In this document: one piece after another, positions 414 through 56,229 of the stretch
Layout: each line of letters starts with the position of its first letter
Numbering within the stretch: the first letter of the stretch is position 1
Notes under the pieces: generated by a model
The model's database searches: none
Told to the model about the DNA's origin: nothing
What the model saw: the letters and a program-made list of their open reading frames with translations, nothing else
Program-made: the position numbers and the translations under genes
Origin: an uncultured virus (IMG/VR IMGVR_UViG_3300049576_000013)
Taxonomy: Duplodnaviria > Heunggongvirae > Uroviricota > Caudoviricetes
IMG/VR virus record: IMGVR_UViG_3300049576_000013
Length of the DNA stretch: 64,000 nucleotides
Strand: one strand, 5' to 3'

Positions 414-731
414 CTAGTTCCAGTAGCCACCGTCAAGGTCGTAGTCCACTTCGGACCCACAGTCCAGGCAGACTGGACGGTGGTCGCACGTCGGATCGCC
501 GCCACACCCTGAACAGCTGAGCTCATCATTGTTGCAGCGCTCATCCGTACACGCGTGGTTGTGATCACAGCCATTGATCATCGGACAGTCGGAACATTGG
601 ATGGTGCCCTCATGCTCGCAACGATCCCCCTCTTCCTCGCTGTCAGCCGGAACCGTCCGACTGACAGCCTCCCGGATACGCTCCCGATCATCGGGGGTGC
701 GCTCCCAGGGTGGCGCGACACTCTGCGCCAT
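414..731 (-). CDS. Cys/His-rich hypothetical protein (possible Zn-binding)
   Basis: ORF with GAGGAGAGAGG SD before ATG; several CxxC/CxH motifs. Confidence 0.6.
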   Translation of the reverse strand: MAQSVAPPWERTPDDRERIREAVSRTVPADSEEEGDRCEHEGTIQCSDCPMINGCDHNHACTDERCNNDELSCSGCGGDPTCDHRPVCLDCGSEVDYDLDGGYWN

Positions 732-809
732 GGCCTCTCTCCTCACCCGCGCCACGGTGTACGGCGCGTCGCCCGGGGACAGGGAGTCGAACCCCGCCCC
801 CGGTACCGC

Positions 810-1682
810 TCAGCCCTTGCTCTCCGCCGGTACCCGGCGGGGACGGCCAGCCCGGTCGTACCCGTTCGCGTCGTACCCGTCGGGATCGTAGCTGGTACCG
901 GTCTCCTCGTGGGTGCCGTACACGTTGAACCCCTGGGGGTTGTAGTGCGTGCCGGTCTCCCGATGAATCAGCGTGTCGCGGTGCCAGCCGTTGCGGTTGA
1001 ACCCGTCCCGGTCGTACCCGAGCCGGTTGAGCCCGTCCCGACCGTATCCCTCCCGGTCGCGACCGGTGCCGCCGTGGAACCCATCCCGGCCGTACCCAGC
1101 CCGGTCGTAGGCGAACACGCTGTCATCCGTGCTGGCCCACTCCGCCAGGATCTCGCGCGTCAGCCCGCGGTACACGTAGCCGTCAGCGTTGAACCCATCC
1201 CGGCCGAATCCTTCGGCGTTGAACCGGTACCGCTCGGGCGCGTCACGGTGGATGCCGTCCGCGTCCAGACCGTCACGGTTGAACCCGTGGCGGTCGAGAC
1301 CGGCCCGGTCGTACCCTTCCCGATCCCGACCGTCACGGTTGAAGCCGGCCCGGTCGTATCCCTCGTCGTCGAACCACTTCTCGCCCCGGCAGTCGTATCC
1401 CTCGTCGTCGCGCCAAGCGTCGCCGTCAAGGGGACCGTCCGGGAACATGCGGAACATGACGCGGGAGAACTCCGCGCACCATGACTGCGAACGGGCGCCA
1501 TGGACACCGTGATTCTCCACGCGCGCCTGCAACGCCTGCATCTGGACCCGGGCGGCCGCTTGCACGGCCTCACGGGTCTGGTCGGCGGTGCCGTCGGCGG
1601 ACTCCATGGCGGACAGGTACGCCTGCCACGCGTCGTCTGACAGGCGGTAGGGACTGTCGGCCTTCATGTCCCGATTGGACAT
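810..1682 (-). CDS. Hypothetical protein with many GYDRxG/GFNRxG short repeats
   Basis: ATG at 1682 after GAGAAAGG SD; C-terminal two-thirds made of GY/FD/NRxG repeats. Confidence 0.8.
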   Translation of the reverse strand: MSNRDMKADSPYRLSDDAWQAYLSAMESADGTADQTREAVQAAARVQMQALQARVENHGVHGARSQSWCAEFSRVMFRMFPDGPLDGDAWRDDEGYDCRGEKWFDDEGYDRAGFNRDGRDREGYDRAGLDRHGFNRDGLDADGIHRDAPERYRFNAEGFGRDGFNADGYVYRGLTREILAEWASTDDSVFAYDRAGYGRDGFHGGTGRDREGYGRDGLNRLGYDRDGFNRNGWHRDTLIHRETGTHYNPQGFNVYGTHEETGTSYDPDGYDANGYDRAGRPRRVPAESKG

Positions 1683-10082: not shown

Positions 10083-10270
10083 CTTCCTATGTCGAGACGG
10101 CCACCCTCCTGGCCGTGATGAACCACGACAAGGACGAGGCCAACACCTTGCTCGCCACGTTCCTGGACGGGGAACTGTCAAGGTTCCTTGCGCAGGTTCG
10201 GTACCTGGAGCTTCTGATCCGCAAGGAGAGGTGGCGGCGGGAAGACCTGAACGGGAGCATCACCAAGTGA
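10079..10270 (+). CDS. Hypothetical protein
   Basis: ATGA overlap. Confidence 0.6.
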   Translation: MTSYVETATLLAVMNHDKDEANTLLATFLDGELSRFLAQVRYLELLIRKERWRREDLNGSITK

Positions 10271-10569
10271 TCCTGGACCAGGCCACCTTCAACAGGGTCA
10301 CTGCTGTGGTGAACTACTGCCGACGCAACGGTGTCGACATCCCCACCCGGCTGCACGAGGCTGACCTGCTCTGGACTCCAGAACGGGAACGCCACCTGCG
10401 GGCCGATGCGATGCGCTTCATCGCCTTGGAGATCCTGGAGTGGAGCCCGGCCGAGTTCCTGCGCACGGTTAACCGCAGCATCACGAACGCCACCCCGGCG
10501 GAGATGTACCACGCCATCACACTGTGGATCAAGCGTCACGCGGATGAAGCTGAGAAGACAGCACCATGA
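10267..10569 (+). CDS. Hypothetical protein
   Basis: GTGA overlap, high GC3. Confidence 0.7.
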   Translation: MILDQATFNRVTAVVNYCRRNGVDIPTRLHEADLLWTPERERHLRADAMRFIALEILEWSPAEFLRTVNRSITNATPAEMYHAITLWIKRHADEAEKTAP

Positions 10570-10849
10570 CGACGACCCCCTTCGCATCAGGTCTTCCCCG
10601 CTCGACTTCCCCCCCCACACCTGGCCGCGTCTCGCCGACACATCTTCTCGATTCGGTTCTTGCCCGACTGTCCGCGACGACCCTGTACCAACCGTATCGA
10701 CTACGCCACCCGTCCCCGCTACTGGCCGACTCCTCGCTCCCGGACCTTGCGACTCCGACTGCCCCGCTCTTCTCGCGCCCCTTCTACCCGACAACTCAGC
10801 TCGCGCCGTCACTTGACGACGACCCCCCCCGGTCCTAGTCCCACCATTC
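10568..10849. repeat. Pentamer-periodic array 1: about 9 units of GAC+(NNNYC)5-6, candidate guide-RNA array
   Basis: e.g. gac ttccc ccccc acacc tggcc gcgtc tcgcc gac; gac tgccc cgctc ttctc gcgcc ccttc taccc gac. Confidence 0.85.
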
Positions 10850-10863
10850 ACAAAGGAGGTTCC

Positions 10864-11430
10864 ATGAAGCAGCTTGTCTCCCTACGTGATGTCAACGGAG
10901 AGATGCGCAAGGTCATCGAGGAGGAACTTGATCGTCACGCAGATGCTCCGTGGGTGGCGGCGTCAGTGGCCGTAGACCTGGTCGAACGGCTCCGCCAGGA
11001 CGACCCCGAGCTACTGAACAAGTGGCTGGAGCACCAGGCCGTCCGAGTGGTCCGTGAGGCCATCGTCGGCCTGGAGGGAGCGCGGCGGCAGCAGGCCAGG
11101 ATCAAGGCCGAGCGGCGGCGCCCCCCGAGCGTCTTCGCCAAGGCGTTGGAGCAGTACGAAGAGACCGGGCGGAGGGAAACCCTGGCGGCCTGGCTCGATA
11201 CTACGTTCATCGTCACTGCCAAGAACCAGCGCAAGACCCTCGGTGACATGGACCAGGAAGACCTGCGCTTCGCCGCCGACAGCTACACCCGCAGCGCCCG
11301 CGCGCTGGGGATGCAGGCAGCGTTCCTCCGCGTCCTCGCCAGCCGCGTCGGAGCCAAGAGGGTGTCCGAGGTGTTCGACGAGGAGGAGCTATCTCGCATC
11401 TGGCGTGAACTTGACCGCATGGGCGACTAG
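10864..11430 (+). CDS. 188-aa alpha-helical protein between arrays 1 and 2 (candidate accessory of the Cas7-like system)
   Basis: AAAGGAGG SD at end of array 1; high GC3; no recognisable family. Confidence 0.8.
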   Translation: MKQLVSLRDVNGEMRKVIEEELDRHADAPWVAASVAVDLVERLRQDDPELLNKWLEHQAVRVVREAIVGLEGARRQQARIKAERRRPPSVFAKALEQYEETGRRETLAAWLDTTFIVTAKNQRKTLGDMDQEDLRFAADSYTRSARALGMQAAFLRVLASRVGAKRVSEVFDEEELSRIWRELDRMGD

Positions 11431-11896
11431 TCGTTCCTCTCCCATCCCTGACCGACATTCCATGTCCCATCACACCGTTACGACTGCCCGGCTACGGGCC
11501 CCATCCCTCCGAGGCTACTCCGACTATCCACTTCAGAACGGGTCATGCCTCACCGATTCGACTCGGCTGCTCGGCACCGGTCCCCCCCGATCCGTCCTCG
11601 ACCAACCAGTCCACCCCTCTCCCAGTTCGACTTACCGCGCCTGACCGAGTCCGACCGAGTCTGTTCCGACTATGCGCTCCCGTTCATCCCGACATCGACT
11701 ACGCGTCACCGCCCGATCCATGCCATGTCCGACCAGTCTCCCCCCACCCCCCCTGCCCGGCTCTGCCCGACGACTCATTTCACGTCGAGCCGTCTCTGTT
11801 CGACTTGTCACTCCCGATCCGACCATCCCGAGGTCGACTGCCCGGATCAACTCTGCTCTCCCTGCTCCGACAACTCTGTCCAGGTCCACTCAACCC
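11424..11896. repeat. Pentamer-periodic array 2: about 14 units of GAC+(NNNYC)5-7, directly upstream of the Cas7-like gene
   Basis: e.g. gac attcc atgtc ccatc acacc gttac gac; gac tatcc acttc agaac gggtc atgcc tcacc gattc gac. Confidence 0.85.
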
Positions 11897-11915: not shown

Positions 11916-12704
11916 ATGGAAAGCATCTTCGCCGAGGCCCAAGGAAGGGCCTACCCGTACCGGTACGATGCCGAAATCTTCGTACCGATGCTGGTCGGCG
12001 GTGTGCCCTCGGACCCCAAGGTGGCCGAGGGTTGGATCCGCACCAAGGTGCAGGGCACCGAGGAGCGCATCCAGAACCTGATCGCTGAGACGATCGTGGA
12101 CCGTGGCGTATCTGCCGAGGAGGCGGTCAGGATCGTCAACGAGATGAAGAACCTGAACGGTTTCAAGCGCACCCCGGAGGGTGAGCTGTGCATCGAGGGT
12201 CGCCAACTCAAGGCGATGCTCAAGGAGGCCGTCTCGGTGGCCGCAGGTGCTGCGAAGATCAAGCAGACCGGCTGGGGCGTTACCCGCAAGTGGATCAAGG
12301 GATTCTTCCCGGAGCACGTCTTCGTGGTCGAGGGGATCGTCCCGCTGGGCGTCACCTCCCCCACCGGGATCCTCCAGAACTTCCCCCACACCCACAACGG
12401 GTCCTCCATCCAGTACCAGGAGTACGTCACCGACGTGAAGCTCAGCTTCACCGTCATCACCGACTGGAAGTTCACCAAGAAGGAGTGGGAGATGATCTGG
12501 ACCACGGCCGAGAAGCAGGGCCTCGGCTCCAGCCGCTCCCAGGGCTACGGCATCTTCTCCGTCACCCGCTGGGACGAGACCATCGACACCAGCGCCCTGA
12601 AGAACAAGTCCGGCGGCGCCGACGAGGATGACGACGGCTCCGAGGAGGCTCCGGTCGACGACTTCGTAGTGAAGGTGGGGCGCAGGAACAAGGCCGCCAG
12701 CTGA
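11916..12704 (+). CDS. Stand-alone RAMP/Cas7(Csm3)-like protein
   Basis: LCIEGRQLKAMLKEA resembles the RAMP PxIPGSSLKGxLR motif; C-terminal Gly-rich loop GLGSSRSQGYGIFSV; strong SD. Confidence 0.8.
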   Translation: MESIFAEAQGRAYPYRYDAEIFVPMLVGGVPSDPKVAEGWIRTKVQGTEERIQNLIAETIVDRGVSAEEAVRIVNEMKNLNGFKRTPEGELCIEGRQLKAMLKEAVSVAAGAAKIKQTGWGVTRKWIKGFFPEHVFVVEGIVPLGVTSPTGILQNFPHTHNGSSIQYQEYVTDVKLSFTVITDWKFTKKEWEMIWTTAEKQGLGSSRSQGYGIFSVTRWDETIDTSALKNKSGGADEDDDGSEEAPVDDFVVKVGRRNKAAS

Positions 12705-14276: not shown

Positions 14277-15188
14277 TTGCGTAAAGCCCTAGCAGCCGTG
14301 GGCGCCCTACTCATCCTGGCCACTGCCGCCTGTGCCGAGATCGCTGATCCAGACATGGTCGGTCTCTACTACATGGAGGGGCAGAGTGACGGGTACAAGT
14401 TCGACCACTGCATCGACCCGGGGAAGTCCGACGACGCCTTGTGGAACAACTCGGTGGTCTGGCTCCCCAACAACCTCCGCACCTGGAACATCGCCCCCCA
14501 GGGCGGGGACACTGATCGCCCCATCACGGTGGCCTCCAAGCCCGAGGCGAACCAGCCCTCCGGTGTACAGGTCAACATCTGGTCGCAGGTCAACCTGATG
14601 CTCAACACCAACTGTGACGACGGTGGCAACAGCCCCCTGGTCCAGTTCTGGGAGAAGATCGGCCGCCGCTACGGCGCTGACACCGAGGAGGGCTGGAAGC
14701 GCACCCTGCTGAACACCGTGGTGCCGGCACTGGAGAAGGCCACCCGGGTCGTGGTGCGTAACTACTCCGCCGACCCGCTCGTGGCCGGGACCAGCCTCCC
14801 CGAGATCCAGGAGGCCATCGCCCGGGAGTTCTCCACGGAGCTGAAGCGGGTCACGGGCGGGGAGTTCTTCTGCGGCCCCGAGTTCAACCGAGCCACCACC
14901 GCCTGTCCCCCGGTGCAGGTGCTGGTGAAGGACGTGGACTACACGGATCCTGGCATTCAGCAGGCCCGCAATGACAAGCAGAAGGCCCTGGAGCAGGCGG
15001 CGGCCCGAGTGGCGGCGGCGCAGGGCGAGGTGGACGCTGCGGCCAAGCAGCGGGAGCTGTACGACAACCCGGCCTGGGTGCAGCTGGAGAAGGCCAAGAT
15101 CCAGCTGGAGATTGCCAAGGCGTGTGGGCAGAATCCGAATTGTCACATGGTGATGGGTTCGGACGGCACCATCATCACCACCAAGTAG
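14277..15188 (+). CDS. SPFH/band-7-like lipoprotein
   Basis: ATAAC lipobox, band-7-like core, C-terminal coiled coil. Confidence 0.7.
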   Translation: MRKALAAVGALLILATAACAEIADPDMVGLYYMEGQSDGYKFDHCIDPGKSDDALWNNSVVWLPNNLRTWNIAPQGGDTDRPITVASKPEANQPSGVQVNIWSQVNLMLNTNCDDGGNSPLVQFWEKIGRRYGADTEEGWKRTLLNTVVPALEKATRVVVRNYSADPLVAGTSLPEIQEAIAREFSTELKRVTGGEFFCGPEFNRATTACPPVQVLVKDVDYTDPGIQQARNDKQKALEQAAARVAAAQGEVDAAAKQRELYDNPAWVQLEKAKIQLEIAKACGQNPNCHMVMGSDGTIITTK

Positions 15189-15947: not shown

Positions 15948-16187
15948 GTGAGCGAGGAGGAGTTAGCCCGCCAGTTCACCGAGGAACTAGATCGGTACGC
16001 GGCATGTGACCATGATTGGCAACTGAATGCGGTTTTCCGTGGCGGGTGGGCGAAGGATCGCTGGATCTCGGAGTGCACCAAGTGCGGGTGGGCGAGGTAC
16101 CACGCTGAACCTCCCGAGGATCGACCGCGCAGGAAGCGAAAGGTGGAAGAGGGTGAGAACCAAGATCCTGTCCGTAACGATCCATGA
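15948..16187 (+). CDS. Small Zn-binding hypothetical protein
   Basis: CDHDW...CTKCG; GGAGG SD. Confidence 0.55.
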   Translation: MSEEELARQFTEELDRYAACDHDWQLNAVFRGGWAKDRWISECTKCGWARYHAEPPEDRPRRKRKVEEGENQDPVRNDP

Positions 16188-16500
16188 CTGTGAGGTGCAA
16201 CATTTCCGCAGCGGTGGCAAGGGCGGACAGAACCAGAACAAGCGGGACACTGGGACGAGGGTGATACATCATCCTTCAGGCGCCCGAGGTGAGTCACGTG
16301 AGGAGCGTTCCCAGCTCCAGAACAAGAAGCTGGCGTTCCGGCGGATGGTCGAGTCGCCGAAGTTCCGGACTTGACTGCTGATCCAGACCGGTCGCCTGGC
16401 CCTGGTCGACTCCCGCGTGGAGCGGGAGATGACCCGGGAGCACATCAAGGTCGAGGTCAAGCGAGAGGGACGCTGGGTTGAAGATCATAGTCTATGGTGA
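16153..16500 (+). CDS. Class-I peptide chain release factor-like GGQ-domain protein with in-frame TGA at 16372-16374 (readthrough or pseudogene)
   Basis: FRSGGKGGQNQNKRDTG...RSQLQNKxxA motif; coding-like frame continues 41 codons after the TGA. Confidence 0.8.
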
Positions 16501-18638: not shown

Positions 18639-18712
18639 AGCGGGATAGCGCAGCTCGGCAGCGCGCTGGGCTCATAACCCAGAGGTCACCGGTTCAAATC
18701 CGGTTCCCGCCA
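18639..18712 (+). tRNA. tRNA-fMet (CAU), initiator type
   Basis: Full cloverleaf; 1:72 A-C mismatch; CTGGG-CTCATAA-CCCAG with three G-C pairs; TTCAAAT T loop. Confidence 0.95.
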
Positions 18713-18812: not shown

Positions 18813-20357
18813 TCAGAACGGCCAGGTGCCGTTCTGGCCGTGCTCCAGTAGGGGCACCATCTGGAACCCCTTGTCAGTCAAGCCACCGAACGTCCAGCGG
18901 TTGTCAGTGCCAGCGTCGCCGCCGTAGCGGTAGCCGGCCAGGTTCCAGGTGTACACCGGGGTCCGGCTAGGAACAACGGAGCCGGCGCCACCATCGTGGT
19001 GCTGCTCGTCGGTGACCACCAAGACCCGGTCGTGCCCGTTGTAGAACTGCCGGGTCGCAGCGGCCGTGTACGTACCACCGAGGTTCGTGAACTGCCCCAT
19101 GAGACGAAGCACCGAGCCACCAGCCTGGTAGGGCACCTCGTGAGCGGTGCTGCCGTACTGGACCAGGGTGACCCGGCCCGGGTTACGTAGCGCCAGGGCG
19201 GCACCGAACAGGGCACCCACCTCAGCCCGCATCATGGTCGATTTGCTGCCCGTCGCCGGCATGAACATAGAGCCCGACCGGTCCACTAGGACCAGCGACC
19301 GGCCTGGCAGCTCCGGAATGTTCTCCACAGTCAGATCGAACGCCTTATGCAGGGCCTGGCTCCAGCGCACACTGGCCACCGCCTTGTAGGCGGAGTAGAA
19401 CCGGAACGGGAACTGGCGTGACCGTCGCACCTGCCACGGGTCGGTGAGCTTCGTGGTGACCTGCTGCACCGCCTCCTCGGAGATCCCCGCCTGATCGAAG
19501 TTACGCAGGTTCCGTAGCAGGGCCATGTACCCCATGGACGGGATCAGGGCCTCCCACAGCTTCGCCTTCGACACCTTGCTGCCAACCAGGGACAGCGCGT
19601 CCTCCCACGTCATCCCCGCCTCGTGCAGTGCCGAGGCGGACAGGGCCAGCTCCGGCTCCGAGGCAACGTCCCGTCGGAACGCAGCGTTGGCCTGGAGAAC
19701 GTCCAGCTGACCGGTGAAGTCAACCTCGCGGCCATGGCGCCGAGCCAGGGCCAGCTCGAACAGTTCACCCTGTCCAATCTGTGTAGCCACCGGATGGGTC
19801 AGTTCGATCACGTCACCGAACCGGAAGCTCTTGGAGTCGGTGTCGTATTTCAGCAAGCTTCGCTGGTTGTACAGGTTCACAACGGCGTCAGCGACGCCAC
19901 GCTTCACCGGCTTGGGAATGGATCGGCCATAGGTGCTGGTCCAGTAGGCCAGCGCCTCACCCGGCTCATCAGCCCGCTGAAGCACGTCCCGCACAATGGC
20001 GCGGGAACCCGGCACTTTGGCCTTGACCATGGCCCGAGCCGCCTCCAGAGCACCGACTAGGGATGCGGAGCGCATGTTGGCCTCGTTGCGTAGCCACACC
20101 AGGAACCGGGCCATCCACTGAGGATCGGAAACGGCCACAGCGCGGATCAGCTGGGCGTAGCGGTCGTCGCGAGCCTTGGCCTTCTCGTAGAAGGTGTCCT
20201 CCTTGACCATGTTGGATACGGCCAGGAGGAACAGTTCGGACTTGGCGTCGCGAGCGAAACCGGGGGCACCCTCATGGGTGCGAGAGGTGGCCAGAACATC
20301 GGTGACGAGGGGCGCCTGGGCCACGATGCGTGGCCGCCCTCGATTGAACTTGGACAT
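18813..20357 (-). CDS. rsr: Ro60/TROVE-vWA ribonucleoprotein (Rsr)
   Basis: THEGAPG, ELFLLAV...TFYE, RADEPGE, MGYMALLRNLRNF, SRQFPFRF, VLVDRSGSM (MIDAS), VVTDEQ. Confidence 0.95.
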   Translation of the reverse strand: MSKFNRGRPRIVAQAPLVTDVLATSRTHEGAPGFARDAKSELFLLAVSNMVKEDTFYEKAKARDDRYAQLIRAVAVSDPQWMARFLVWLRNEANMRSASLVGALEAARAMVKAKVPGSRAIVRDVLQRADEPGEALAYWTSTYGRSIPKPVKRGVADAVVNLYNQRSLLKYDTDSKSFRFGDVIELTHPVATQIGQGELFELALARRHGREVDFTGQLDVLQANAAFRRDVASEPELALSASALHEAGMTWEDALSLVGSKVSKAKLWEALIPSMGYMALLRNLRNFDQAGISEEAVQQVTTKLTDPWQVRRSRQFPFRFYSAYKAVASVRWSQALHKAFDLTVENIPELPGRSLVLVDRSGSMFMPATGSKSTMMRAEVGALFGAALALRNPGRVTLVQYGSTAHEVPYQAGGSVLRLMGQFTNLGGTYTAAATRQFYNGHDRVLVVTDEQHHDGGAGSVVPSRTPVYTWNLAGYRYGGDAGTDNRWTFGGLTDKGFQMVPLLEHGQNGTWPF

Positions 20358-20359
20358 GA

Positions 20360-20393
20360 ATGTGGCTCCTCCGTGTCGAGGGAGGAGCCACAT
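20360..20393 (-). promoter_or_regulatory. 13-bp perfect hairpin sequestering the rsr SD / Y-RNA terminator
   Basis: ATGTGGCTCCTCC-CTCGACAC-GGAGGAGCCACAT-TC-ATG. Confidence 0.75.
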
Positions 20394-20401
20394 CGTCAAG
20401 T

Positions 20402-20541
20402 GATGCCTGAGATCAAGTCGGCCGGGCGAACGTAACCGCGCTGCCAATTGCGCCACAGCCCCACAAGTGGGGCCGGTTGGACTCGAACCAACAACCTGTC
20501 CTTTACAAGAGGAAGAACTCCCAACCTGCGCACCAGGCATC
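20402..20541 (-). ncRNA. yrlA: YrlA-type Y RNA (Ro-binding stem plus circularly permuted tRNA module)
   Basis: 5' GATGCCTGGTGCGCA / 3' GACTTGATCTCAGGCATC stem; T arm GTTGG-TTCGAGT-CCAAC; loop-closed acceptor CGGCCCCA-CTTG-TGGGGCTG; D arm GCGC-AATTGGCA-GCGC; immediately upstream of rsr. Confidence 0.9.
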
Positions 20542-20552
20542 TGAAGTTGTGG

Positions 20553-20631
20553 CCCTCCCGAGATCAAAGTCGCCCGTCGGAATGGAGTCCATTTGCCTTG
20601 GAAGTATCCGCTGGGCTTCGCACCGGGAGGG
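20553..20631 (-). ncRNA. Second, shorter Y RNA (no tRNA module)
   Basis: CCCTCCCG-GTGCGAA...GACTTTGATCT-CGGGAGGG with the same Ro-binding motif as the YrlA. Confidence 0.8.
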
Positions 20632-42628: not shown

Positions 42629-45600
42629 CTACTGTTGCTTCCGCCGCATGAGCTGGCCGCGACGGTTCTTATCGTTCCAGATCTCGTCGAGGGCCGTGAT
42701 GGCCTTCTGCACGATCCGGTCGATCTCCATCTTGCCTTCCATGCTCTCGTGACGCTTGTTGTAAAGCCGGCGGCGGAGATCTTCACGTAGGCCCGGACCG
42801 CCCACTTGCCCACTGGCGAAGTCGTTCACAAAGTCCACTGCCATATCCAGCTCCGACTTGTCCGGGCCATGTTGCCCAGCTCGACTTCCACCCCGAGCCA
42901 ACGGGTTGTTAGCAAGGTCCACGACAAGGCGACGTAGTGGCTCCGGTGTTCCCTCAGGAAGCCGGGGAACATCCCGCTCTGGCGAGGAGATGTTGTCGAG
43001 TGCTCGCTCCAGCTTCTTCGCCGCTGCGTCAGGCAACCGCTCCTGGAGCTGTCGCAGAAGACGGATCATCCCATCCATACTGATTCGGCCCATAACGGCG
43101 TCAGTAGCTATCTTCCCAATCACATTTCCCAGCGGTTCACCATCCGCATCCAGGCGAACGTCGTCACCGAGCTGTCGAAGTAGCTGGCCAATCTCACCGT
43201 CCTGGTGGAAGTGGACTTCACCTGGCCGCCCACCCCACGTGTTCTCGATTAGTGGTTTATTGGACTTCTCGCCGGAGAACTTCTTGACCGGAGCAGCCTG
43301 ACGCACCTTGGCGCGCATCGGTGTCGCCGCAGCCTTCTTGGCCTGGTTGAAGGCATCAGCCACCGCGTCGTCAAGGTCAGCGAGCTGAAGTCCACGCACG
43401 TCTGGACGACCTGGAACACCAGCCACCCAGTGACGCTCCGTCTCACCCATGGTGCGACTGGTGCGCCCCTCCTCGACCTCCACGTTGGTGGCGTTAACTA
43501 GCGCCACCATCTTCCCGTCGGCGTCGTAGATGCGGTAGCTGGGGGACGGCGAGGAGGAGTCGCGTAGCCACATGGTGTGACCCTCGGGCAGGGACTTGGA
43601 CTCGACCTGGACGGCTGAGGGCGACAGTCCGCTGGGGCGAGCGACCGGTGTCTTGGCTGGGGCGGCAGCGGGCGTGTAGCGGTCGGCGATCTGACTGATG
43701 ATGTCGGCTTTGCGACGCCCGCTAACTCCATGCTGCGCGGCCAGGACACGGAGTTCAGGCATCAGGAGACCAGCCATGGCATCTTCAGCCTGGCGCCGGT
43801 TCTTGGCACCTTGAAGCCGCTCCATGGTCTCGTCCATCATCCGCTGCTTAATCTTGGCCAGCTCCGTCTCGACCCGCTGCTGGGCCGGCGGCGCAGCCTT
43901 AGCCGGGGCAGCCTTCTTGGCCGGGCGCCGCGTCTTCTTCAGGCGGTCGGCCAGAGCCTGCATCCGGTCGGCTTCGGCGTAGATGGCCTGCTTGGCGCGG
44001 GCGTTCCGCTCCAAAAATTCAGGATCGCGGTCACGCCCCGAGCTGTCTTGGCGGTTGTACTCACCATAACGAATAGCGCCCATGCCTCGATAAGCCTCAG
44101 CACGTCCCTCTAGCCAGCGACCAACAGCAGCCGGTGTGGGATTCTTCGGCAGATCGGAAACGGGTGCTCCAGTTAGCTTTACGGTCACTCGTTCCCCGTC
44201 AAGGGCCCTCTGGGCCTCATCTAACAAGTTCTTGGTCCATTGCTGACTTTCGTCCAGATCAAGACCTTCACTGATGGCGCGAATGTTCAACCCCTCCCCG
44301 CTGGCATCAACCTTCGGAGGGGGCGGTGGCGCGGCCTTCTTCGCGGCAGTCTTCTTGGCTGCCTTCGTTGCCATCTGTGACGCGCGCCGATCCAGCTCCT
44401 GCTGGGCCACCTTCTTGATGAAGCTGGAGAGGACTTCCCCCTTGGTGTTCCCCTCTGGTTCCGGGAACCCTGCCCGTACAGCTGCCTCTTTCAACTGCTC
44501 CGGGGTGGTGACCTCCAGTATCTTCTTGATGTCTGGACCTACGGTCTTCTCGATCTCGGGAAGGGTTACCTCTTCGTTCTTGAAGTAGTCACGCAGGAAC
44601 TCGGAAGCCCGCTGCTGGGCCTTGATAGCCCCCTCCAGCTTGGCTGCCTTGATAACCAAGCTCTGACGGTCAGCGGTGTCCAGCTCTCCGCGCAGCGTGG
44701 AGTCGATGTCGGCCAATTCCTCCTTGTTGAAGGAGATCTCCGACTCCATGCGCTGGATGCCCTCCTGCGGGGTGATCTTCCCGCTGGAGATGTCATCAAT
44801 GATCTCGTTGGTAGCCCGCTTCGGGGACCCGTCCCGCATCTTGATGTCGGCGTCGTCCCACGCCTGCTTGAACTCGTTCTTTCGAGGAGCGTTGTCGATC
44901 GGCGTCACCGTACGGCTCTCGAAGTCGCCAGCGGGAGGCTCCTCGGCGGCCTCGACGACGCTCTTGCTGAGTCGGATGTCCTCCCCGTCCCGCTGGAGCG
45001 TGAGCCCAGGACGGACGATCTGCACGTCCGCGCCTTGGCGGACCTTGCCGATCGCCTCGTGTTGCTTCGGGTCGAACTTGGCCCGGTCGCCGGCCTTGCC
45101 GTACGGGGTGATGCCTTCAAGGTCGAGCAGCTTGGCCATCTCGGCGCGGGCCTTGTCCCGGTCGCCCGACTCGATGGCGGAGATGACGGGGCCGAGGTCG
45201 AGCCCGCCGGTCGGGCGCGGTGAGGGGTCGTCGATGGCGATGTTGTGCCGGTCCTGATTACCGATGGAGATAGCGGCGTCGCGGTCCGCCTGGGTCAAGG
45301 CCGCCTGCTTGTTCTCCGGAACGACGCTCGTGCCGCGATCCTTGGCGTGCAGGCGCAGGATTGCTGCATCGATCTCGTGGCGGTTGGTGCTCTCGCCGAG
45401 TTCTTCGCGCAGGTCGGCAAGGGCCACCAGCTGCGTGTCGCCGGGCCGGGCCTTGCGCCCGTTGCGCGCCAAGACCGCTACGTAGGCCGCCCGCACACGG
45501 TTCTCGACGACGATGTCACGGTCCGCACCCCGTTCGGCCGCCGCACGCAGCCGGGACAGGACAGCCCGGTCTGACGCTCCGTTGTGCAGGATCTCGTCCA

Positions 45601-48523
45601 GCTCGCCGGCGGCAGTCGAGAGCTTGCGGGCTGAGTCGATGGCGGACTGACGGTCGCGGGCGGACTGCTCGAGGTCGCCAGCCAGGTCCTCGGCATCCTG
45701 GAGTTCGGCGAACTCGCGCTCGAGTTTCTTCCGCTCGGGCGAGGGACGCCGGTGCCCCGCCCCGGAGTCCTGGCGGTAAGCGAGGTTCTTCGCGAACCAG
45801 TCGCGCCGATCGTCAATGGACAGCCCCTTCGGGAGCTTGAGCTGGACCTCGCCGCCGCCTGAATACCGGCTGGCCAGCTTCGCCAACTCGCCGGCGTTGA
45901 GATCGGCGATCATGTCGCTGATCTTCTGCTGCCGCTCGGCGCGGTCAGCTCCACGGACGCCAGTCAGGCGCTCAACCAGCGCATCAAAGTCGGCCGTTTC
46001 GGGCTTCAATGGAAGCCCGGAGGAGCGCTTGGTGACGGACTGCTCCCCCAGATCTGGCACTACGACCAGGGTCTGCGACGGGGATAGACCAGCTACCCCA
46101 CGAGCACTCTGGTTGATGTTCTCGACCGGATTGCCTTGCTCATCGGTGCCACTGATCCGGATACGCCCGTTGGTGTCACGATCCACTGAGGTGATGGTGA
46201 CGATCTTGCCGCCAGTGCGCCGATTGGTGGGCTTGTTCTCCGGAGTGAGCCGTACCCGCATGCCCGGTTGAAGACGCCCAGCCGTGATCTTCCCGGCCGC
46301 AGTGCCAGGTGCCGCACCCGGAACGGCGACCTTGGCCGCCTTCTTAACCGGAGGCGCCTCGGGGACTCGTGGCTTAGCCCCCTCGGTACGCCGCCCCCGA
46401 GTCGACATCTCCTCCAGGATCGTGTTGATGAGCCCGTCCCGGCGCATCTTGTTGATGCTGGTGGCTGGGGCGATGTCGTTCTCTTTGGCGAAGGCGCGGA
46501 GGTCGGCGACGGTCGGCCTCTTGCCACCGAACAATTCCGTGATCTGCTGCTCTTTGTTGGTCGTCGACCCAGGCTCAGCTGGAAGGTCCTTGAGCCCTCG
46601 AAGCTCCTTCTTCAGCTGATCCTTGGTCATCCGGGAGAGCGGGATGCCACCTCGCTCGGCGGCCAGGCCACGTTTCTTTGCCTCGGCGTACAGCTCCGCC
46701 TTGGTCATCTTGTCCAGGTCATCCCCAGACTCGGGTGCCGCCTTCGCCGGGGAAGCCTTCTTAACCGGAGCAGCCTTCTTGGCCGCCGCCTTCCGTGGGG
46801 CCGGCTTTGTAAGCTGGTCGGCAACCCTGTTCAGGTGGTCGTCTTCGCCACGATCATTTCGAAGGCGCCGCGCCCCTTCTGCCCGGGAGATCCGCTTACG
46901 ACGGACCATGTCCATGACGACATTGAGGCCAGTCAGCTCAAACTGGCTCAGATCGCCCTCTTTGATGCCGGCAGCCTCTAACAGCGGCAGGTACACCTCG
47001 CGATTGGCAGTGTCGGCTTCCTCGTTACTTTCGGCAACCCGAGCGTTAGTGCGCTTGGCAGCGGCACGCCCTGTTTCGGCAGCAACCTCCCGGGATTGCT
47101 CCTGCTCCCGATCAACTTTCTGTTGCTGAGCATCTGTGGGCCGAGTCGCTGCTGCCTTCTTCGCGTTGCCTCGGTCCTGGCGCCGCTCCTCGGGCGTTGG
47201 CCTGATGCCGGGGGAGCGGCGGGCAGGCTTCTTCTCCTCGACTGGGGCCGGCAGGTTGTACTGCTCCCGGATCAGGTCCCGGAGTTGTTCCTGGGCACGG
47301 ATGTCATCAGCCAGTTCCTCATCACCCTGGCCAGCCTGGAGCTTGCGCTGGTTGACAGCAATGTCCCGCTCCAGCTCCCGGACCGAGTCTCGCGGGTCCT
47401 TCTTCCCGGTGGCGATGCCCTCGTAGGCGTCGTTGAACTCCTTGCGTCGCGACCCAGCCGAAGGCGCAGGGATGTTGGCCTCGCGCACGGCGTTGCGGAT
47501 GTCTACGATCCGTGGAGTCGGTGGCTCTGGCTCCGGTGTAGGGACTGTCTCTTGCCCTATTGCGGGGGCCGGAGCGGAACCGGGGGCAGGGCCACCGACT
47601 GCTCGTGACACCACTGGTTCAGTACGCGGCGGTGGGGTGCCCGGCGGTGCGGGCACCTGCTGCTGCCCAGCCCCCTGGGGCATAGCCTGCTGCCGGGCCT
47701 GCTCCCGCTGCGCCGCCTCCGCTTCGACCTGGGTGTCGGACTGGATCCGCATCTGGTTCTGCTGAGATTGGGTGACTTGGGCGACGCCAGCCTCACGCTG
47801 CTCCACGCCGGGCCCAGCGCCAGGGGCGGGGCGCCCGATCGGTTCCGGCGTCTCACCAGGTGTCCGGTCGGTGGCCACGGCCATGACGTAGTAGCCGCCG
47901 GCCCCGTCCGGCGTCACCTTGGTGATGCGGTACTCCTGGTCCCGGTCCAGGATCACTTCCCGGTCCCCGGGTCCGTCGCCGGGGATGATGGCCTGGGTGC
48001 CCTTGGGGACCGCCACAGTCATCAGGATGCCGGTGTTCTGCCCCAGTGGGGTGCCGATGTTGGTGGACCCGTAGCCCCGGTCCCCGATCAGCTTGCCGGT
48101 GAAGTCTTCGATACCCCCCTCATCCAGGCCCATGGTTTCGGGGGTGAGCCCGAACGCTTCCGGAGTCACACGACGGGACACGATGATGTCGTCCGGCAGA
48201 GTGACCTTGTTACGGTCCATCATCTGCACGAACTTCTTGGTTGACGCATCCATATCGCCGCGTCGCAGGGCCTGGTTCGCCGCCGGGTAGTCAGCGGCGA
48301 ATCGTGGCATGTCTAACCCGCCGCCACCTCGGGGCTTTCGGTTGAAGACGTACTGAGCCGCCTGTTGGTCGCTGCTGAACGTGCGGGGGTTGAACTTGGC
48401 CAGGATGTTGGTGATCGCGTCCACGACACCGGCGGCCATCTTCCACTTGCTACGGAAGCGGCCGTTCTTGTCGCGGGGGTGCAGCAGTTCCTCGCGAGTA
48501 CCCCACGAATCACCAAGTCCCAC
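42629..48523 (-). CDS. 1964-aa head-associated multidomain protein with N-terminal VIP2-like ADP-ribosyltransferase domain
   Basis: HPRDKNGRF N-terminus; NQALR...VSRRV...GYGSTN...VPKGT...DREVIL (R-S-E pattern); AAKKAAP linkers. Confidence 0.75.
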   Translation of the reverse strand: MGLGDSWGTREELLHPRDKNGRFRSKWKMAAGVVDAITNILAKFNPRTFSSDQQAAQYVFNRKPRGGGGLDMPRFAADYPAANQALRRGDMDASTKKFVQMMDRNKVTLPDDIIVSRRVTPEAFGLTPETMGLDEGGIEDFTGKLIGDRGYGSTNIGTPLGQNTGILMTVAVPKGTQAIIPGDGPGDREVILDRDQEYRITKVTPDGAGGYYVMAVATDRTPGETPEPIGRPAPGAGPGVEQREAGVAQVTQSQQNQMRIQSDTQVEAEAAQREQARQQAMPQGAGQQQVPAPPGTPPPRTEPVVSRAVGGPAPGSAPAPAIGQETVPTPEPEPPTPRIVDIRNAVREANIPAPSAGSRRKEFNDAYEGIATGKKDPRDSVRELERDIAVNQRKLQAGQGDEELADDIRAQEQLRDLIREQYNLPAPVEEKKPARRSPGIRPTPEERRQDRGNAKKAAATRPTDAQQQKVDREQEQSREVAAETGRAAAKRTNARVAESNEEADTANREVYLPLLEAAGIKEGDLSQFELTGLNVVMDMVRRKRISRAEGARRLRNDRGEDDHLNRVADQLTKPAPRKAAAKKAAPVKKASPAKAAPESGDDLDKMTKAELYAEAKKRGLAAERGGIPLSRMTKDQLKKELRGLKDLPAEPGSTTNKEQQITELFGGKRPTVADLRAFAKENDIAPATSINKMRRDGLINTILEEMSTRGRRTEGAKPRVPEAPPVKKAAKVAVPGAAPGTAAGKITAGRLQPGMRVRLTPENKPTNRRTGGKIVTITSVDRDTNGRIRISGTDEQGNPVENINQSARGVAGLSPSQTLVVVPDLGEQSVTKRSSGLPLKPETADFDALVERLTGVRGADRAERQQKISDMIADLNAGELAKLASRYSGGGEVQLKLPKGLSIDDRRDWFAKNLAYRQDSGAGHRRPSPERKKLEREFAELQDAEDLAGDLEQSARDRQSAIDSARKLSTAAGELDEILHNGASDRAVLSRLRAAAERGADRDIVVENRVRAAYVAVLARNGRKARPGDTQLVALADLREELGESTNRHEIDAAILRLHAKDRGTSVVPENKQAALTQADRDAAISIGNQDRHNIAIDDPSPRPTGGLDLGPVISAIESGDRDKARAEMAKLLDLEGITPYGKAGDRAKFDPKQHEAIGKVRQGADVQIVRPGLTLQRDGEDIRLSKSVVEAAEEPPAGDFESRTVTPIDNAPRKNEFKQAWDDADIKMRDGSPKRATNEIIDDISSGKITPQEGIQRMESEISFNKEELADIDSTLRGELDTADRQSLVIKAAKLEGAIKAQQRASEFLRDYFKNEEVTLPEIEKTVGPDIKKILEVTTPEQLKEAAVRAGFPEPEGNTKGEVLSSFIKKVAQQELDRRASQMATKAAKKTAAKKAAPPPPPKVDASGEGLNIRAISEGLDLDESQQWTKNLLDEAQRALDGERVTVKLTGAPVSDLPKNPTPAAVGRWLEGRAEAYRGMGAIRYGEYNRQDSSGRDRDPEFLERNARAKQAIYAEADRMQALADRLKKTRRPAKKAAPAKAAPPAQQRVETELAKIKQRMMDETMERLQGAKNRRQAEDAMAGLLMPELRVLAAQHGVSGRRKADIISQIADRYTPAAAPAKTPVARPSGLSPSAVQVESKSLPEGHTMWLRDSSSPSPSYRIYDADGKMVALVNATNVEVEEGRTSRTMGETERHWVAGVPGRPDVRGLQLADLDDAVADAFNQAKKAAATPMRAKVRQAAPVKKFSGEKSNKPLIENTWGGRPGEVHFHQDGEIGQLLRQLGDDVRLDADGEPLGNVIGKIATDAVMGRISMDGMIRLLRQLQERLPDAAAKKLERALDNISSPERDVPRLPEGTPEPLRRLVVDLANNPLARGGSRAGQHGPDKSELDMAVDFVNDFASGQVGGPGLREDLRRRLYNKRHESMEGKMEIDRIVQKAITALDEIWNDKNRRGQLMRRKQQ

Positions 48524-53748: not shown

Positions 53749-53828
53749 AGCCTAAAGGTGAAACTCCTGCAAGGGGTAGACGCCACTTAGGTGGGGACTT
53801 GCCCCCCAGGGGTCCCTGTGCTAGTGTC

Positions 53829-53856
53829 TGACAGGTCACGTTCCCCTGACCTGTCA
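53829..53856. terminator. Hairpin bounding array 3
   Basis: TGACAGGTCA-N8-TGACCTGTCA. Confidence 0.55.
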
Positions 53857-54281
53857 CATCCGCCCCACCCTCTTCGATCCTGCCCGGATCCGACAACCCA
53901 TACCCACCCCGTATCGAGCCCGACAACTCCGACTATCCGGCTCACCTCGCCACGACCTCTCTACCCAGCCCAGTTCGACTGCCCGACGCTGGCCCCCTCG
54001 TTCCAGCTCCTTAACGACACGCCGGACCACATCTGACCCGGCCGATTGACCGACCGCACCACACCAGTCCTCTTCGACGTCTCAGGCCGTTTCCACTCAG
54101 GCCGACATACCCACTCCGCCCAACTCACCTCGATTGACTTGCCAGTTCACGTCGCCCCGTCGCCCGGCCGACATGTCATCTCGCTCCAACTCAGACCGGA
54201 ACAGGCCCGACGCACCAGCCCCACCCCCTCCAATCCGATCCGACAGCTCATGCCCACCCGCGCCCACTCAATACAAACGAC
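53856..54281. repeat. Pentamer-periodic array 3: about 12 units of GAC+(NNNYC)5-7, orphan copy downstream of terminase
   Basis: e.g. gac gtctc aggcc gtttc cactc aggcc gac; gac gcacc agccc caccc cctcc aatcc gatcc gac. Confidence 0.85.
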
Positions 54282-55704
54282 TAAGGTCATACGCACTCTG
54301 GTCCATATGCAACTCGTAGCGGCTCGGATCACCGAGCCGCATTTTTTTGCGCTCACCAGACATGAGATGGATCGAGGCGTGGACGAGGGCGTCCATCCGG
54401 TCGGGACTCTCCCGAGTAGACGTGGGGTCATAGAGAACCATCTGATTCTCCAGTTCATCCCAGGTGCCCACCATGTGCAGGCGCCCTTGCTCTGAGCGCA
54501 TAGCCACTGGTTCAGCTCGTGTCTTCTTGCCGTGCTTGGCGTGTACCGGCTTCATCGGTGGCGTGGTACCGCGCGGGAACATCCCCAGCTCCACGCACTC
54601 CTGATAGGCGTCTTGAAGCACCTCGTGGAGGTACCGCTTCCCTAGGTTCTCCTCATATACCAGGATGTCGGCGGCGAACTCAGCCACCGCCCGCCAGGCA
54701 GCCAGAGCCGCTGCTCGTCCTGACTCACTGACAGTTCGATCGGCCAGGACGTAGTGGTGATTGTCCTTGTCCCGGCCCACCACCACGATGCCGGTCTGGG
54801 CATCTTCACCGGTCAGGTTGGGGTCCATTCCGACCACGGTGGAGATCAGCACCTCGGGCACTGTGTTGAGCCGATACTTAACCAGGTCCATGCGCCGGAA
54901 CAGTCCACCGCCGGTCAGCTCCAGTAGCTTGCCGTACAGCTCCTGCTCGCCCAGCGCCGTGCCGGCGTAGCGGATCTTCAGCTCGGCCAGGGCGTGCTTG
55001 GACAAGTTGACTGCGTTGTCGAAGGTCGAGCCAGTGATGATATGAATGGTGCCGTCATCCCGGGCCAACCACTCCATCAGGAGTTTGATCGGTTTCGGTG
55101 TGGTGGTGACGAAAGCACGGGGGTGGTCGTTGATCAAGTCAGCTCTGAGGGCTGGCAGCAGGCCCTCATACCAGGTCTCGTAGGGCTTGACCCACTTCGC
55201 CATCTCGTCACAGAGCACACCTGCGGCGTTGTACCCACGTCCCGTATCTGGATCATCCGCCCCCTCCAAGTAGATCTTGGAGCCGTCAGGGAACAGGACC
55301 ATGGGGCGAGGACTCTGCTTGTAACGGTGATCGATGCGGCGCCGCTGAAGAACGTTCAGGATCCCACTGGGACCTTCGGCATTGATGGTGCGGGCATCGG
55401 CCAAGGTGTCGGCGACCACCAACCACTCCGTGGGCACACCAGACCGGTCATAGGGGTGGCGGAGGACTCGGTCTACAACCCATTCGGACCCAGCCCTGGA
55501 CTTCCCAGCCCCTCGGCCAGCCATGTAGAGGTAGACCAACTCGTCACCCTCGGGCGGTATCTGCTCCGGCCGGGCGACGTACCACCATTCTCCCCGGTTC
55601 ATTTCCATGAGCGCTTGTTCAGGGAGTCGACTGATGAACTCGACCCGCTCGGAGACAGGGAGCATGGCCAGCCGCTGCTTCATGGACAGGCCCATGGCGA
55701 TCAT
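54268..55704 (-). CDS. terL: Terminase large subunit
   Basis: Walker A AGRGAGKS, Walker B VLCDE, TTTP, GMDP, SPDRMDAL; start approximate. Confidence 0.95.
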   Translation of the reverse strand: MIAMGLSMKQRLAMLPVSERVEFISRLPEQALMEMNRGEWWYVARPEQIPPEGDELVYLYMAGRGAGKSRAGSEWVVDRVLRHPYDRSGVPTEWLVVADTLADARTINAEGPSGILNVLQRRRIDHRYKQSPRPMVLFPDGSKIYLEGADDPDTGRGYNAAGVLCDEMAKWVKPYETWYEGLLPALRADLINDHPRAFVTTTPKPIKLLMEWLARDDGTIHIITGSTFDNAVNLSKHALAELKIRYAGTALGEQELYGKLLELTGGGLFRRMDLVKYRLNTVPEVLISTVVGMDPNLTGEDAQTGIVVVGRDKDNHHYVLADRTVSESGRAAALAAWRAVAEFAADILVYEENLGKRYLHEVLQDAYQECVELGMFPRGTTPPMKPVHAKHGKKTRAEPVAMRSEQGRLHMVGTWDELENQMVLYDPTSTRESPDRMDALVHASIHLMSGERKKMRLGDPSRYELHMDQSAYDLSRLY

Positions 55705-55812: not shown

Positions 55813-56229
55813 TTGTCGCAATCGGACATCGAACTGGGGCGCGAAGTGGTGCGGTCCGGGAAGCTCCAGGAGCTCCGATCGCAGCTGGGACTGAGCCGCA
55901 ACGCCATGGCGGAACTGCTTCACACCGCTGCCCTGACCTACACGTCCTGGGAGAAGCGGCCAGAGACCAACCTGTGGCCGAGCACTGCCGAGAAGGTGGG
56001 TCGCTTCTACCGAGTGGCCACGGAGGAGATCTTGCTGATGACTCAAGCCGGTCTCAAGGTGAACGAACTGATGCCGTTCCATCTAGTGGCCACCCAGCTA
56101 GGACTGCCTCAGGAGACCCTGTTCGGAATGTACCGAGATGGACTAATTGAGGCCGTGGACGGAGGGATTCTGGGGCTGTGGGTGGAGCGGGAGCAGTTGG
56201 AGCGCTACCGAGCGGGCGTGTGGACCTGA
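55813..56229 (+). CDS. XRE-type HTH DNA-binding protein
   Basis: LQELRSQLGLSRNAMAELL...YTSWE. Confidence 0.75.
   Translation: MSQSDIELGREVVRSGKLQELRSQLGLSRNAMAELLHTAALTYTSWEKRPETNLWPSTAEKVGRFYRVATEEILLMTQAGLKVNELMPFHLVATQLGLPQETLFGMYRDGLIEAVDGGILGLWVEREQLERYRAGVWT

What the first reader, a model, noticed from the sequence alone, without database searches (positions are those of the whole stretch)
11424..11896. Array 2 grammar: (C)GAC delimiter plus 5-7 pentamers with near-invariant C and mostly pyrimidine at position 4
Seen: about 14 units, e.g. gac|ttacc|gcgcc|tgacc|gagtc|cgacc|gagtc|tgttc|c and gac|aactc|tgtcc|aggtc|cactc|aaccc. No two units share sequence beyond the scaffold, so it is not a tandem repeat and would be missed by CRISPR and tandem-repeat finders. 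A few units carry 1-nt indels. The array fills the intergenic space from the upstream stop codon to the SD of the Cas7-like gene. Inference: information lies in the 2-3 variable bases of each pentamer (a non-contiguous code).
Basis: seen in the sequence. Interest (0 to 1): 0.88.

Follow-up and report, generated by a model that had tools for sequence, protein, structure and literature searches.

The report
C-rich phage VIPR guide array
The five-base rhythm is real: it is most likely a string of short guide RNAs for a CRISPR-related phage weapon (VIPR, first described in 2026), written here in an unusual C-rich code, and the guides of related phages point at key genes of rival mobile elements.

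Summary
There are 14 (C)GAC-led units of 4-7 pentamers, with C at position 5 in 76 of 83; 0 of 2000 shuffles reach this phasing. The gene downstream has a RAMP/Cas7 fold and is remotely homologous to SUSP1 Vipr. It forms a vap-array-vipr module found in most of 58 related loci, mostly from actinobacterial phages and prophages. The scaffold is NN-(c)YC on the gene strand, not GGY/NN. A third, stand-alone array has a promoter-like and a terminator-like site on that same C-rich strand. In relatives, reading the first two bases of each pentamer with a 1-nt wobble skip lands on conserved codons of integrases, an IrrE/ImmA protease, D5 primase, terminase, DnaB and other phages' vipr. All of these hits are complementary to the coding strand, but several of the guides were chosen by eye. 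Bulk counts do not single out the skip rule. No target was found for this window's own guides, and there are no RNA data. Verdict: a new variant of a known kind (VIPR). The scan noted GAC-punctuated VIPR arrays before on other DNA. Open: whether the target is DNA or mRNA, and how the units are cut apart.

The parts
11425..11896 (+). Array 2: 14 guide units, GAC-(NNNYC)4-7-[C0-2]
11916..12704 (+). Vipr-like RAMP/Cas7-fold protein, 262 aa (core about 1-228, acidic low-confidence tail); G-loop GLG[A/S]SRSQGYG at 202-212
   Evidence: fold; homology to the SUSP1 Vipr family; 1415 homologues; conservation:
10864..11430 (+). vap-like accessory gene, 188 aa, nearly all helical, no known family
   Evidence: upstream of the vipr homologue in 44 of 58 loci; model pLDDT 90.5; no PDB match at Z >= 5; no similarity to SUSP1 vap1
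10566..10845 (+). Array 1: same grammar, about 8 units, spanned by an ATGA-coupled 90-codon ORF (10566-10838)
   Evidence: C5 after GAC 0.72 versus 0.47; 2 of 2000 shuffles reach it
10231..10569 (+). 112-aa gene upstream of array 1; homologues lie in 6 of 58 related vipr loci; role unknown
53830..54281 (+). Array 3: stand-alone array of the same grammar, convergent with the terminase gene
   Evidence: C5 after GAC 0.81 versus 0.47; 0 of 2000 shuffles reach it
53799..53827 (+). Promoter-like site TTGCCC-17-TAGTGT ending 2 nt before the first GAC of array 3
   Evidence: actinobacterial consensus recalled; not found by the sigma-70 scan
54319..54348 (+). Terminator-like hairpin (9 bp) plus T run after array 3; it lies inside the 3' end of the minus-strand terminase ORF

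Best explanation
This is a guide-RNA array of a divergent VIPR system in an actinobacterial phage. SHOWN: the grammar; the RAMP fold and Vipr homology of the downstream gene; the vap-array-vipr synteny; and, for several guides of relatives, 1-nt-skip, wobble-aligned matches to conserved genes of mobile elements. INFERRED: the C-rich strand is transcribed with vap and vipr (array 3 from its own promoter). The transcript is cut, or loaded, at each (C)GAC into guides of about 28-40 nt. GAC fills the first scaffold slot (GAC-NN, then cYC-NN repeats). One Vipr protomer binds each pentamer, flips out the scaffold and presents NN, so 10-14 bases read 5-7 codons of a target with the wobble base skipped. 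As in SUSP1, the filament binds the target gene and blocks its transcription, disabling rival phages and integrative elements (integrase, ImmA-type anti-repressor, primase, DnaB, terminase, rival vipr). The invariant C just 5' of NN would take the pyrimidine-only Y3 pocket; the G-reading G-loop residues of SUSP1 Vipr are absent.
For: Fold: best VIA-align rows are type VII Cas7 (Z 11.1, rmsd 4.3, 142 aligned) and Csm3 (Z 10.7 and 10.3). hhalign to the SUSP1 Vipr family: probability 77%, E 2e-5, 127 columns, with D177/W178/R179 aligned to A/x/R. Arrays of 3 or more units lie on the gene strand in 44 of 58 loci; 1 locus has an extra, distant array on the other strand. SUSP1 GGY is likewise on its gene strand. 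Promoter-like boxes end 2-6 nt before the first GAC on the C-rich strand in 3 of 14 arrays away from the vipr gene and in 0 of 14 on the G-rich strand; background 4.3% per 93 nt. Targets found without choosing guides by eye, in local searches: L013:4928 matches 16/16 to vipr codons KVAEGWLK in 11 of 59 sources, with its own gene at 2 mismatches. L010:4684 matches 18/18 in a terminase. L051:185 matches 16/18 in DnaB. Antisense wobble-phase hits were 12 of 41 versus 3-10 (mean 5.4) in 12 shuffles. Targets for guides chosen by eye: L029:4744 gave 8 of 8 IMG/VR exact hits on TLDTYAHLW, and all 6 of the 8 sent to Pfam are Phage_integrase. L048:3792 gave 3 hits, 2 of them D5-type primases. L013:4736 gave 9 hits in 7 of 61 genomes versus 2 control hits; all 9 are readable as HELGHLVL, and 6 of the 8 ORFs sent are Peptidase_M78.
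Against: No target was identified for any of this window's own guides. Bulk hit counts do not separate skip 1 from other skips or from shuffles (score >= 13: 5, 11, 12, 5 for skips 0-3; shuffles 4-12); one search gave 35 versus 21 and 23 on a smaller set. By-eye choice is circular: a guide chosen for looking protein-like in the sense frame also returned 4 hits, in the sense wobble frame of the longest ORF for 3 of them, though in unrelated genes. L049:212 gave 0 hits, and L048:3792 gave only 1 chance hit in 201 genomes. The first, shallower profile comparison to SUSP1 Vipr alone found nothing. Guides of 10-14 read bases are short for dsDNA specificity in a multi-Mb host (inference). The terminator of array 3 lies inside a convergent ORF and may be incidental.
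Confidence: 0.65

Rival explanations
1. Same guides and code, but the target is mRNA (type III-like). The C-rich guide pairs with rival transcripts and blocks translation or cuts them, with the helical vap acting as a Cas11-like partner.
For: All six target families identified are complementary to the coding strand. Protein-space z > 3 for 10 of 136 antisense readings versus 3 of 136 sense. Pair composition correlates 0.58 with antisense codon prefixes and 0.20 with sense. The G-loop is Csm/Cmr-like (weak PADLOC hits to Cmr6 and Csm4). The top folds are RNA-targeting type III and VII Cas7. Short guides are less of a problem against transcripts only (inference).
Against: A mixture fit leaves about 0.10 sense and 0.55 uniform. 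The third-base signal also appears in the sense register (z 2.9-6.5). Some of the strand bias comes from motifs I recognised by eye. A coding-strand preference is also what a DNA roadblock such as dCas9 shows (recalled). SUSP1 Vipr, itself found with type III RAMP queries, binds dsDNA (paper).
Confidence: 0.18
2. The guide is the G-rich antisense strand (GR[g]NN, delimiter GTCG), that is, one of the published alternative NNNGG/NNNNG vrRNA types, possibly the 'staggered' arrays.
For: The paper lists NNNGG, YNNNG and NNNNG repeats and 1-nt staggered arrays. 184 of 605 units have length 4 mod 5. dsDNA matches cannot tell which strand is the guide.
Against: Arrays sit flush between co-oriented genes. 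Promoter-like boxes face the C-rich strand in 3 of 14 versus 0 of 14. The terminator of array 3 is on the C-rich strand. This reading puts mostly purines in the Y3 pocket that excludes purines in SUSP1 Vipr, and the G-reading D177/W178 are absent.
Confidence: 0.1
3. Not guides: a low-complexity translated or Rho-loading attenuator region that tunes expression of the downstream gene.
For: An ATG lies within 26 nt of the vap stop in 19 of 36 loci (3.5 expected), and stops are fewer in that frame (13 versus 51 in the other two, p = 0.016). The RNA is C-rich and folds no better than shuffles.
Against: Period 5 with phase resets is incompatible with a conserved peptide. Array 2 itself has no coupled ATG, and 8 of the 19 ATGs are ATGAC delimiter variants. 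This reading cannot explain the 16-18-base gapped matches to conserved motifs or the stand-alone arrays. Translation may be a secondary feature protecting the transcript.
Confidence: 0.04

Closest known systems
VIPR type II, Escherichia phage SUSP1 and P. fulva prophage (10.64898/2026.04.26.720920; structure 10.64898/2026.04.26.720927; biology 10.64898/2026.10.15.759431)
   Same: Lone RAMP gene plus one accessory gene; pentamer arrays on the gene strand; NN code with a 1-nt wobble-aligned skip; targets in recombinases and rival vipr genes.
   Different: Scaffold (c)YC instead of GGY; contiguous GAC-punctuated units of 4-7 pentamers here (mode 6-7 in relatives) instead of 9-16 repeats with a structured tail; G-loop GLGAxRSQGxG instead of GxGDWRPRFG; unrelated vap; identified targets all on one strand.
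VIPR alternative repeats (NNNGG, YNNNG, NNNNG) and 'staggered' arrays (same paper, methods and Fig. S17-S18 legends)
   Same: Degenerate scaffold; back-to-back units with phase resets. The reverse complement of this array approximates NNNGR.
   Different: I could not see the figures or data files, so this clade may be among the seven types, perhaps read on the other strand. A text search of the supplement found no 'Actino' or 'Streptomyces'.
Non-canonical VIPR arrays GAC/NN, CAC/NN, WGT/NN, TGH/NN (10.64898/2026.10.21.760802, section 2.3)
   Same: A non-GGY scaffold next to a Vipr-like fold is already in print.
   Different: cYC/NN with GAC as a once-per-unit delimiter is not among the examples named in the text ('cgac' 0 occurrences); Fig. 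S10 was not visible; no targets are reported in the sections read.
Type III/VII CRISPR Cas7 (Csm3, Cmr)
   Same: RAMP fold and G-loop type.
   Different: No CRISPR repeats and no Cas10, Cas5, Cas6 or Cas1 genes were recognised at the locus; the code is gapped.

Membership tests
VIPR | Stand-alone RAMP-fold protein with G-loop, outside a CRISPR locus | tested here: met
   no CRISPR repeat family in Rfam for the window; neighbouring ORFs give no Cas family
VIPR | Protein homologous to described Vipr proteins | tested here: met
   Remote: hhalign probability 77%, E 2e-5, 127 columns against 8 SUSP1-family sequences. A shallower comparison gave nothing. X1U2U4 and the 670-protein set were not available.
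VIPR | Accessory vap gene in the operon | tested here: met
   44 of 58 loci, with 8 of the 14 misses having under about 700 nt of upstream flank; not similar to SUSP1 vap1
VIPR | Pentamer tandem repeats with a fixed scaffold and free NN ('GGY/NN or a related consensus') | tested here: met
VIPR type II (canonical) | GGY scaffold on the gene strand; G-reading D177/W178 | tested here: not met
   scaffold (c)YC; A/x at those columns
VIPR type II (canonical) | 9-16 repeats per vrRNA plus a conserved structured 3' tail | tested here: not met
   4-7 pentamers per unit with no room for a tail; folding no better than 60 mononucleotide shuffles
VIPR | 1-nt skip rule, wobble-aligned targets in rival mobile elements | tested here: inconclusive
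   Met for several guides of relatives; not resolved in bulk; no target for this window's guides
VIPR | Targets on both DNA strands (dsDNA recognition) | tested here: inconclusive
   Identified targets are all antisense; sense targets are not excluded
VIPR | RNA is expressed, co-purifies with Vipr and represses transcription | not testable with these tools
   needs the bench
CRISPR-Cas class 1 | Repeat-spacer array and multiple cas genes | tested here: not met

The most novel reading that the evidence does not exclude
A distinct VIPR branch with a pyrimidine scaffold on the sense strand, whose transcript is diced at GAC into very short guides that pair only with the coding strand, plausibly the mRNA, of rival elements. 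The third base of each pentamer retains a copy of the target's wobble base, hinting that guides are acquired by copying target triplets and inserting YC between them. It would be an RNA-targeting, type III-like link between VIPR and CRISPR, with a visible trace of how guides are written.
Probability: 0.18. Interest if true: 0.85.

Novelty: new variant of a known kind. Interest (0 to 1): 0.58.

Why it matters
VIPR is proposed as the ancestor of class 1 CRISPR, yet only GGY systems have been worked out. This branch suggests that the NN plus 1-nt-skip code survives a complete change of scaffold and of the scaffold-reading residues. It offers guides of only 28-40 nt with no structured tail, and dozens of natural guides per genome (51 units in L023). 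It makes three open questions testable: how arrays are processed, how new guides are acquired, and whether a Vipr can act on RNA. Deposited records carry it without annotation: phage record PP395641.1 (vap, vipr and array, all 'hypothetical') and genomes titled Nocardiopsis tropica JCM 10877 and Streptacidiphilus carbonis NBRC 100919.

Tried and rejected
Family libraries: Pfam, PHROGs and PDB sequence searches gave no family for Vipr or vap. PADLOC gave only weak G-loop hits. The ESM Atlas gave no usable hit for vap. PDB fold search for vap had best Z 4.4; BFVD gave one unnamed viral hit at E 7e-4.

Expression and strain variation: no RNA holder was listed, which is no evidence on expression. 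DNA contigs of 4 of 18 runs were too fragmentary over array 2 to show unit gain or loss. No whole genome is held for this window.

Other codes: contiguous NNN with skips 0-2 and NN with skips 0, 2 and 3 showed no excess over shuffles (one search used 170 of 365 eligible units).

Near-matches in related phages were singletons. Exact self-matches in the window: 1 of 22 units, a 4-pair unit.

Relatives' guides: L049:212 gave 0 hits; L048:3792 gave 1 chance hit in 201 genomes and its shortened form 0 hits in 324 loci. L345 and L349 (2 of the 9 HELGHLVL hits) have no Pfam or PHROG family. The terminase ORF had no Pfam hit, only PHROG. An apparent G/A bias before TA pairs may partly be merged delimiters; it persisted after removing internal GAC (64% purine of 83).

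Rows dropped: L001 and L028 (duplicates), SUSP1 loci, and units with N or an internal GAC where stated. Arrays plus 150-200 nt were masked in target searches, which hid one own-gene site.

Rejected readings: tandem repeat, CRISPR array, conserved protein.

Literature: searches found four VIPR preprints. No passage I saw describes a C-rich actinophage clade or RNA targeting, but figures, data files and bioRxiv supplements were not visible and may contain this clade.

Full report
OBSERVATION. The pattern is real. C autocorrelation peaks at lags 5, 10 and 15 (z 5.8, 4.0, 3.5; 500 dinucleotide shuffles). Without selecting units, pentamers after GAC end in C at 0.79 versus 0.44, reached by 0 of 2000 shuffles. 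A hand parse gives 14 units of 4-7 pentamers, C5 in 76 of 83, Y4 in 71 of 83 and positions 1-3 nearly free. The array starts in the last codon of the upstream gene and ends at the SD of the next. Two more arrays of the same grammar lie at 10566-10845 and 53830-54281.

CONTEXT. The window is a tailed phage with terminase, portal, capsid, tape measure and primase genes. Its capsid is closest to Actinoplanes phage phiAsp2 (40%) and Gordonia phages. Runs holding it are rhizosphere and soil DNA metagenomes. The 262-aa protein has no Pfam or PHROG family but has 1415 homologues. Its model (pLDDT 81.6) matches type VII and type III Cas7 best (Z 11.1 to 10.3). A 106-sequence profile aligns to the SUSP1 Vipr family at probability 77%, E 2e-5; a shallower comparison to SUSP1 Vipr alone gave nothing. 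I identified SUSP1 vipr from its GGY arrays and the residue numbers in the structure paper. The upstream 188-aa helical gene accompanies the protein in 44 of 58 loci and resembles nothing solved.

GRAMMAR IN RELATIVES. Arrays of three or more units lie on the gene strand in 44 of 58 loci. In 497 units, positions 1-2 are free, position 3 is about half C, position 4 mostly pyrimidine and position 5 C; the parser selects on positions 4-5. Read 5' to 3', a unit is GAC-NN, (cYC-NN)n, then N-Y-C with 0-2 extra bases. This keeps a pyrimidine immediately before NN, as in GGY/NN, whose Y3 pocket excludes purines. The G-reading D177 and W178 of SUSP1 Vipr are replaced, while R179 is kept as the invariant R207.

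WHICH STRAND. There are no RNA data. Indirect evidence favours the C-rich strand: arrays are flush between co-oriented genes, and array 3 has TTGCCC-17-TAGTGT ending 2 nt before its first GAC with a hairpin and T run behind it. Such boxes face the C-rich strand in 3 of 14 arrays away from the vipr gene and the G-rich strand in 0 of 14 (background 4.3%; consensus recalled). The terminator overlaps the convergent terminase ORF, so it is weaker evidence.

CODE AND TARGETS. I searched units against the fetched loci (1.3 Mb, then 5.9 Mb counting both strands, arrays masked). In bulk, no skip length stands clear of shuffles, though the smaller set gave 35 versus 21 and 23 for skip 1. The two best skip-1 hits are telling: 16/16 to the codons KVAEGWLK of other phages' vipr genes (11 of 59 sources exact; own gene 2 mismatches) and 18/18 to a terminase motif. 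A 16/18 hit falls in DnaB. Antisense wobble-phase hits numbered 12 of 41 against 3-10 in 12 shuffles; sense wobble-phase hits were 6 against 4-13. I then picked guides by eye from decoded lists (motif names recalled, then checked). One gave 8 of 8 exact IMG/VR hits on an integrase motif, and 6 of 6 sent to Pfam were Phage_integrase. One gave 2 D5-type primases among 3 hits. One gave 9 hits versus 2 control hits in 61 genomes, with 6 of 8 ORFs sent being IrrE/ImmA proteases. Against this, one pick gave 0 hits, one genome search gave only a chance hit, and a sense-looking pick also returned in-frame sense hits in unrelated genes, which shows the circularity of such picks. For five guides tested besides the vipr one, the best match in the fetched part of the own genome had 4-6 mismatches. 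No target emerged for this window's own guides.

THIRD BASE. In five guide-target sets the third base equals the skipped target base at 18.8 of 39 positions versus 11.7 +/- 2.2 (P = 0.001); a sixth set gave 2.9 of 7 versus 2.0 (P = 0.14). A codon-likelihood test on 564 units is positive in both correct registers (antisense z 3.3-4.5, sense z 2.9-6.5) but also up to z 2.8 off register, and negative for the window's 22 units. So this is a weak echo, not an established third read base.

MECHANISM. Best reading (0.65): C-rich guides cut or loaded at (C)GAC, one Vipr per pentamer, NN pairing with a 1-nt wobble skip, and silencing of rival integrase, anti-repressor, replication, packaging and vipr genes. 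Expression, processing, binding and repression are all inferred from SUSP1. Rivals: an mRNA target (0.18), a G-rich guide strand (0.10), a non-guide attenuator or ORF (0.04).

COMPARISON WITH WHAT IS KNOWN. It works like VIPR and meets the general features tested, but fails the canonical type II features (GGY, 9-16 repeats, structured tail, G-reading residues). Non-GGY scaffolds, staggered arrays, wobble-aligned targeting of recombinase active sites and anti-vipr guides are already in print. What I saw: 10.64898/2026.04.26.720920, whole text and figure legends, supplement PDF parts 4-5 and a term search; 10.64898/2026.04.26.720927, part 1 of 6; 10.64898/2026.10.15.759431, part 1 of 8 and passages; 10.64898/2026.10.21.760802, outline, passages and sections 2.3 and 4.22. 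Figures S10, S17 and S18 of the first paper, Fig. S10 of the last, and the data files were not visible, so this clade may already be typed there. The scan's own notes report GAC- or GTCGC-punctuated VIPR arrays on other genomes; these are unchecked AI notes and not counted as support. I had reached the VIPR reading before seeing them.

VERDICT. New variant of a known kind; interest 0.58. What this work adds is evidence for the guide strand, decoded targets in relatives, an apparent one-strand bias, and a hint of target memory in the third base.

Noticed in passing
window 53830-54281; L097:4333, L100:8750, L178:11051: Stand-alone arrays recur at one site, convergent with the 3' end of the terminase gene, in at least four related phages (terminase identity in the relatives judged from sequence resemblance).
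   Followed up: partly
window 10566-10838; 19 of 36 related loci: Arrays often begin with an ATG near the upstream stop and stay open in that frame; translation may shield the C-rich RNA from Rho (inference).
   Followed up: partly
L013:4736, L015:4407, L018:4577: Three different phages carry near-identical guides against the IrrE/ImmA HExxH motif, suggesting shared or exchanged units.
   Followed up: partly
L336:3570-4070: The closest relative locus has an extra gene inserted between vap and a shortened array 2, and its arrays do not match the window's.
   Followed up: partly
L350 (PP395641.1): Deposited as a Microcystis phage, but this region is 73% GC and carries the same vap-vipr-array module; the host label may deserve a check.
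   Followed up: no
window 555-1484 +: 309-aa ORF built of short peptide repeats that gives a strong period-15/5 C signal at 780-1460; coding repeat, unrelated to the arrays; no PHROG family.
   Followed up: no
window 18813-20567 -: TROVE plus VWA (Ro60-like) gene next to a tRNA at 18639-18712.
   Followed up: no
window 42629-48523 -: 1964-aa ORF in the head gene region with an N-terminal ADP-ribosyltransferase-like match (PHROG E 2.6e-10).
   Followed up: no
window 16027-16374 +; 14277-15188 +; 56178-57005 +: RF-1-domain peptide release factor, SPFH/Band 7 protein and Cas4-like exonuclease. The exonuclease is 44 kb from vipr and is not evidently part of the system.
   Followed up: no
pooled units, last pentamer: Position 3 of the last pentamer is uniform (IC 0.02) while first pentamers are biased to TT/TA/AA + CCC, so the unit ends have their own rules.
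   Followed up: partly
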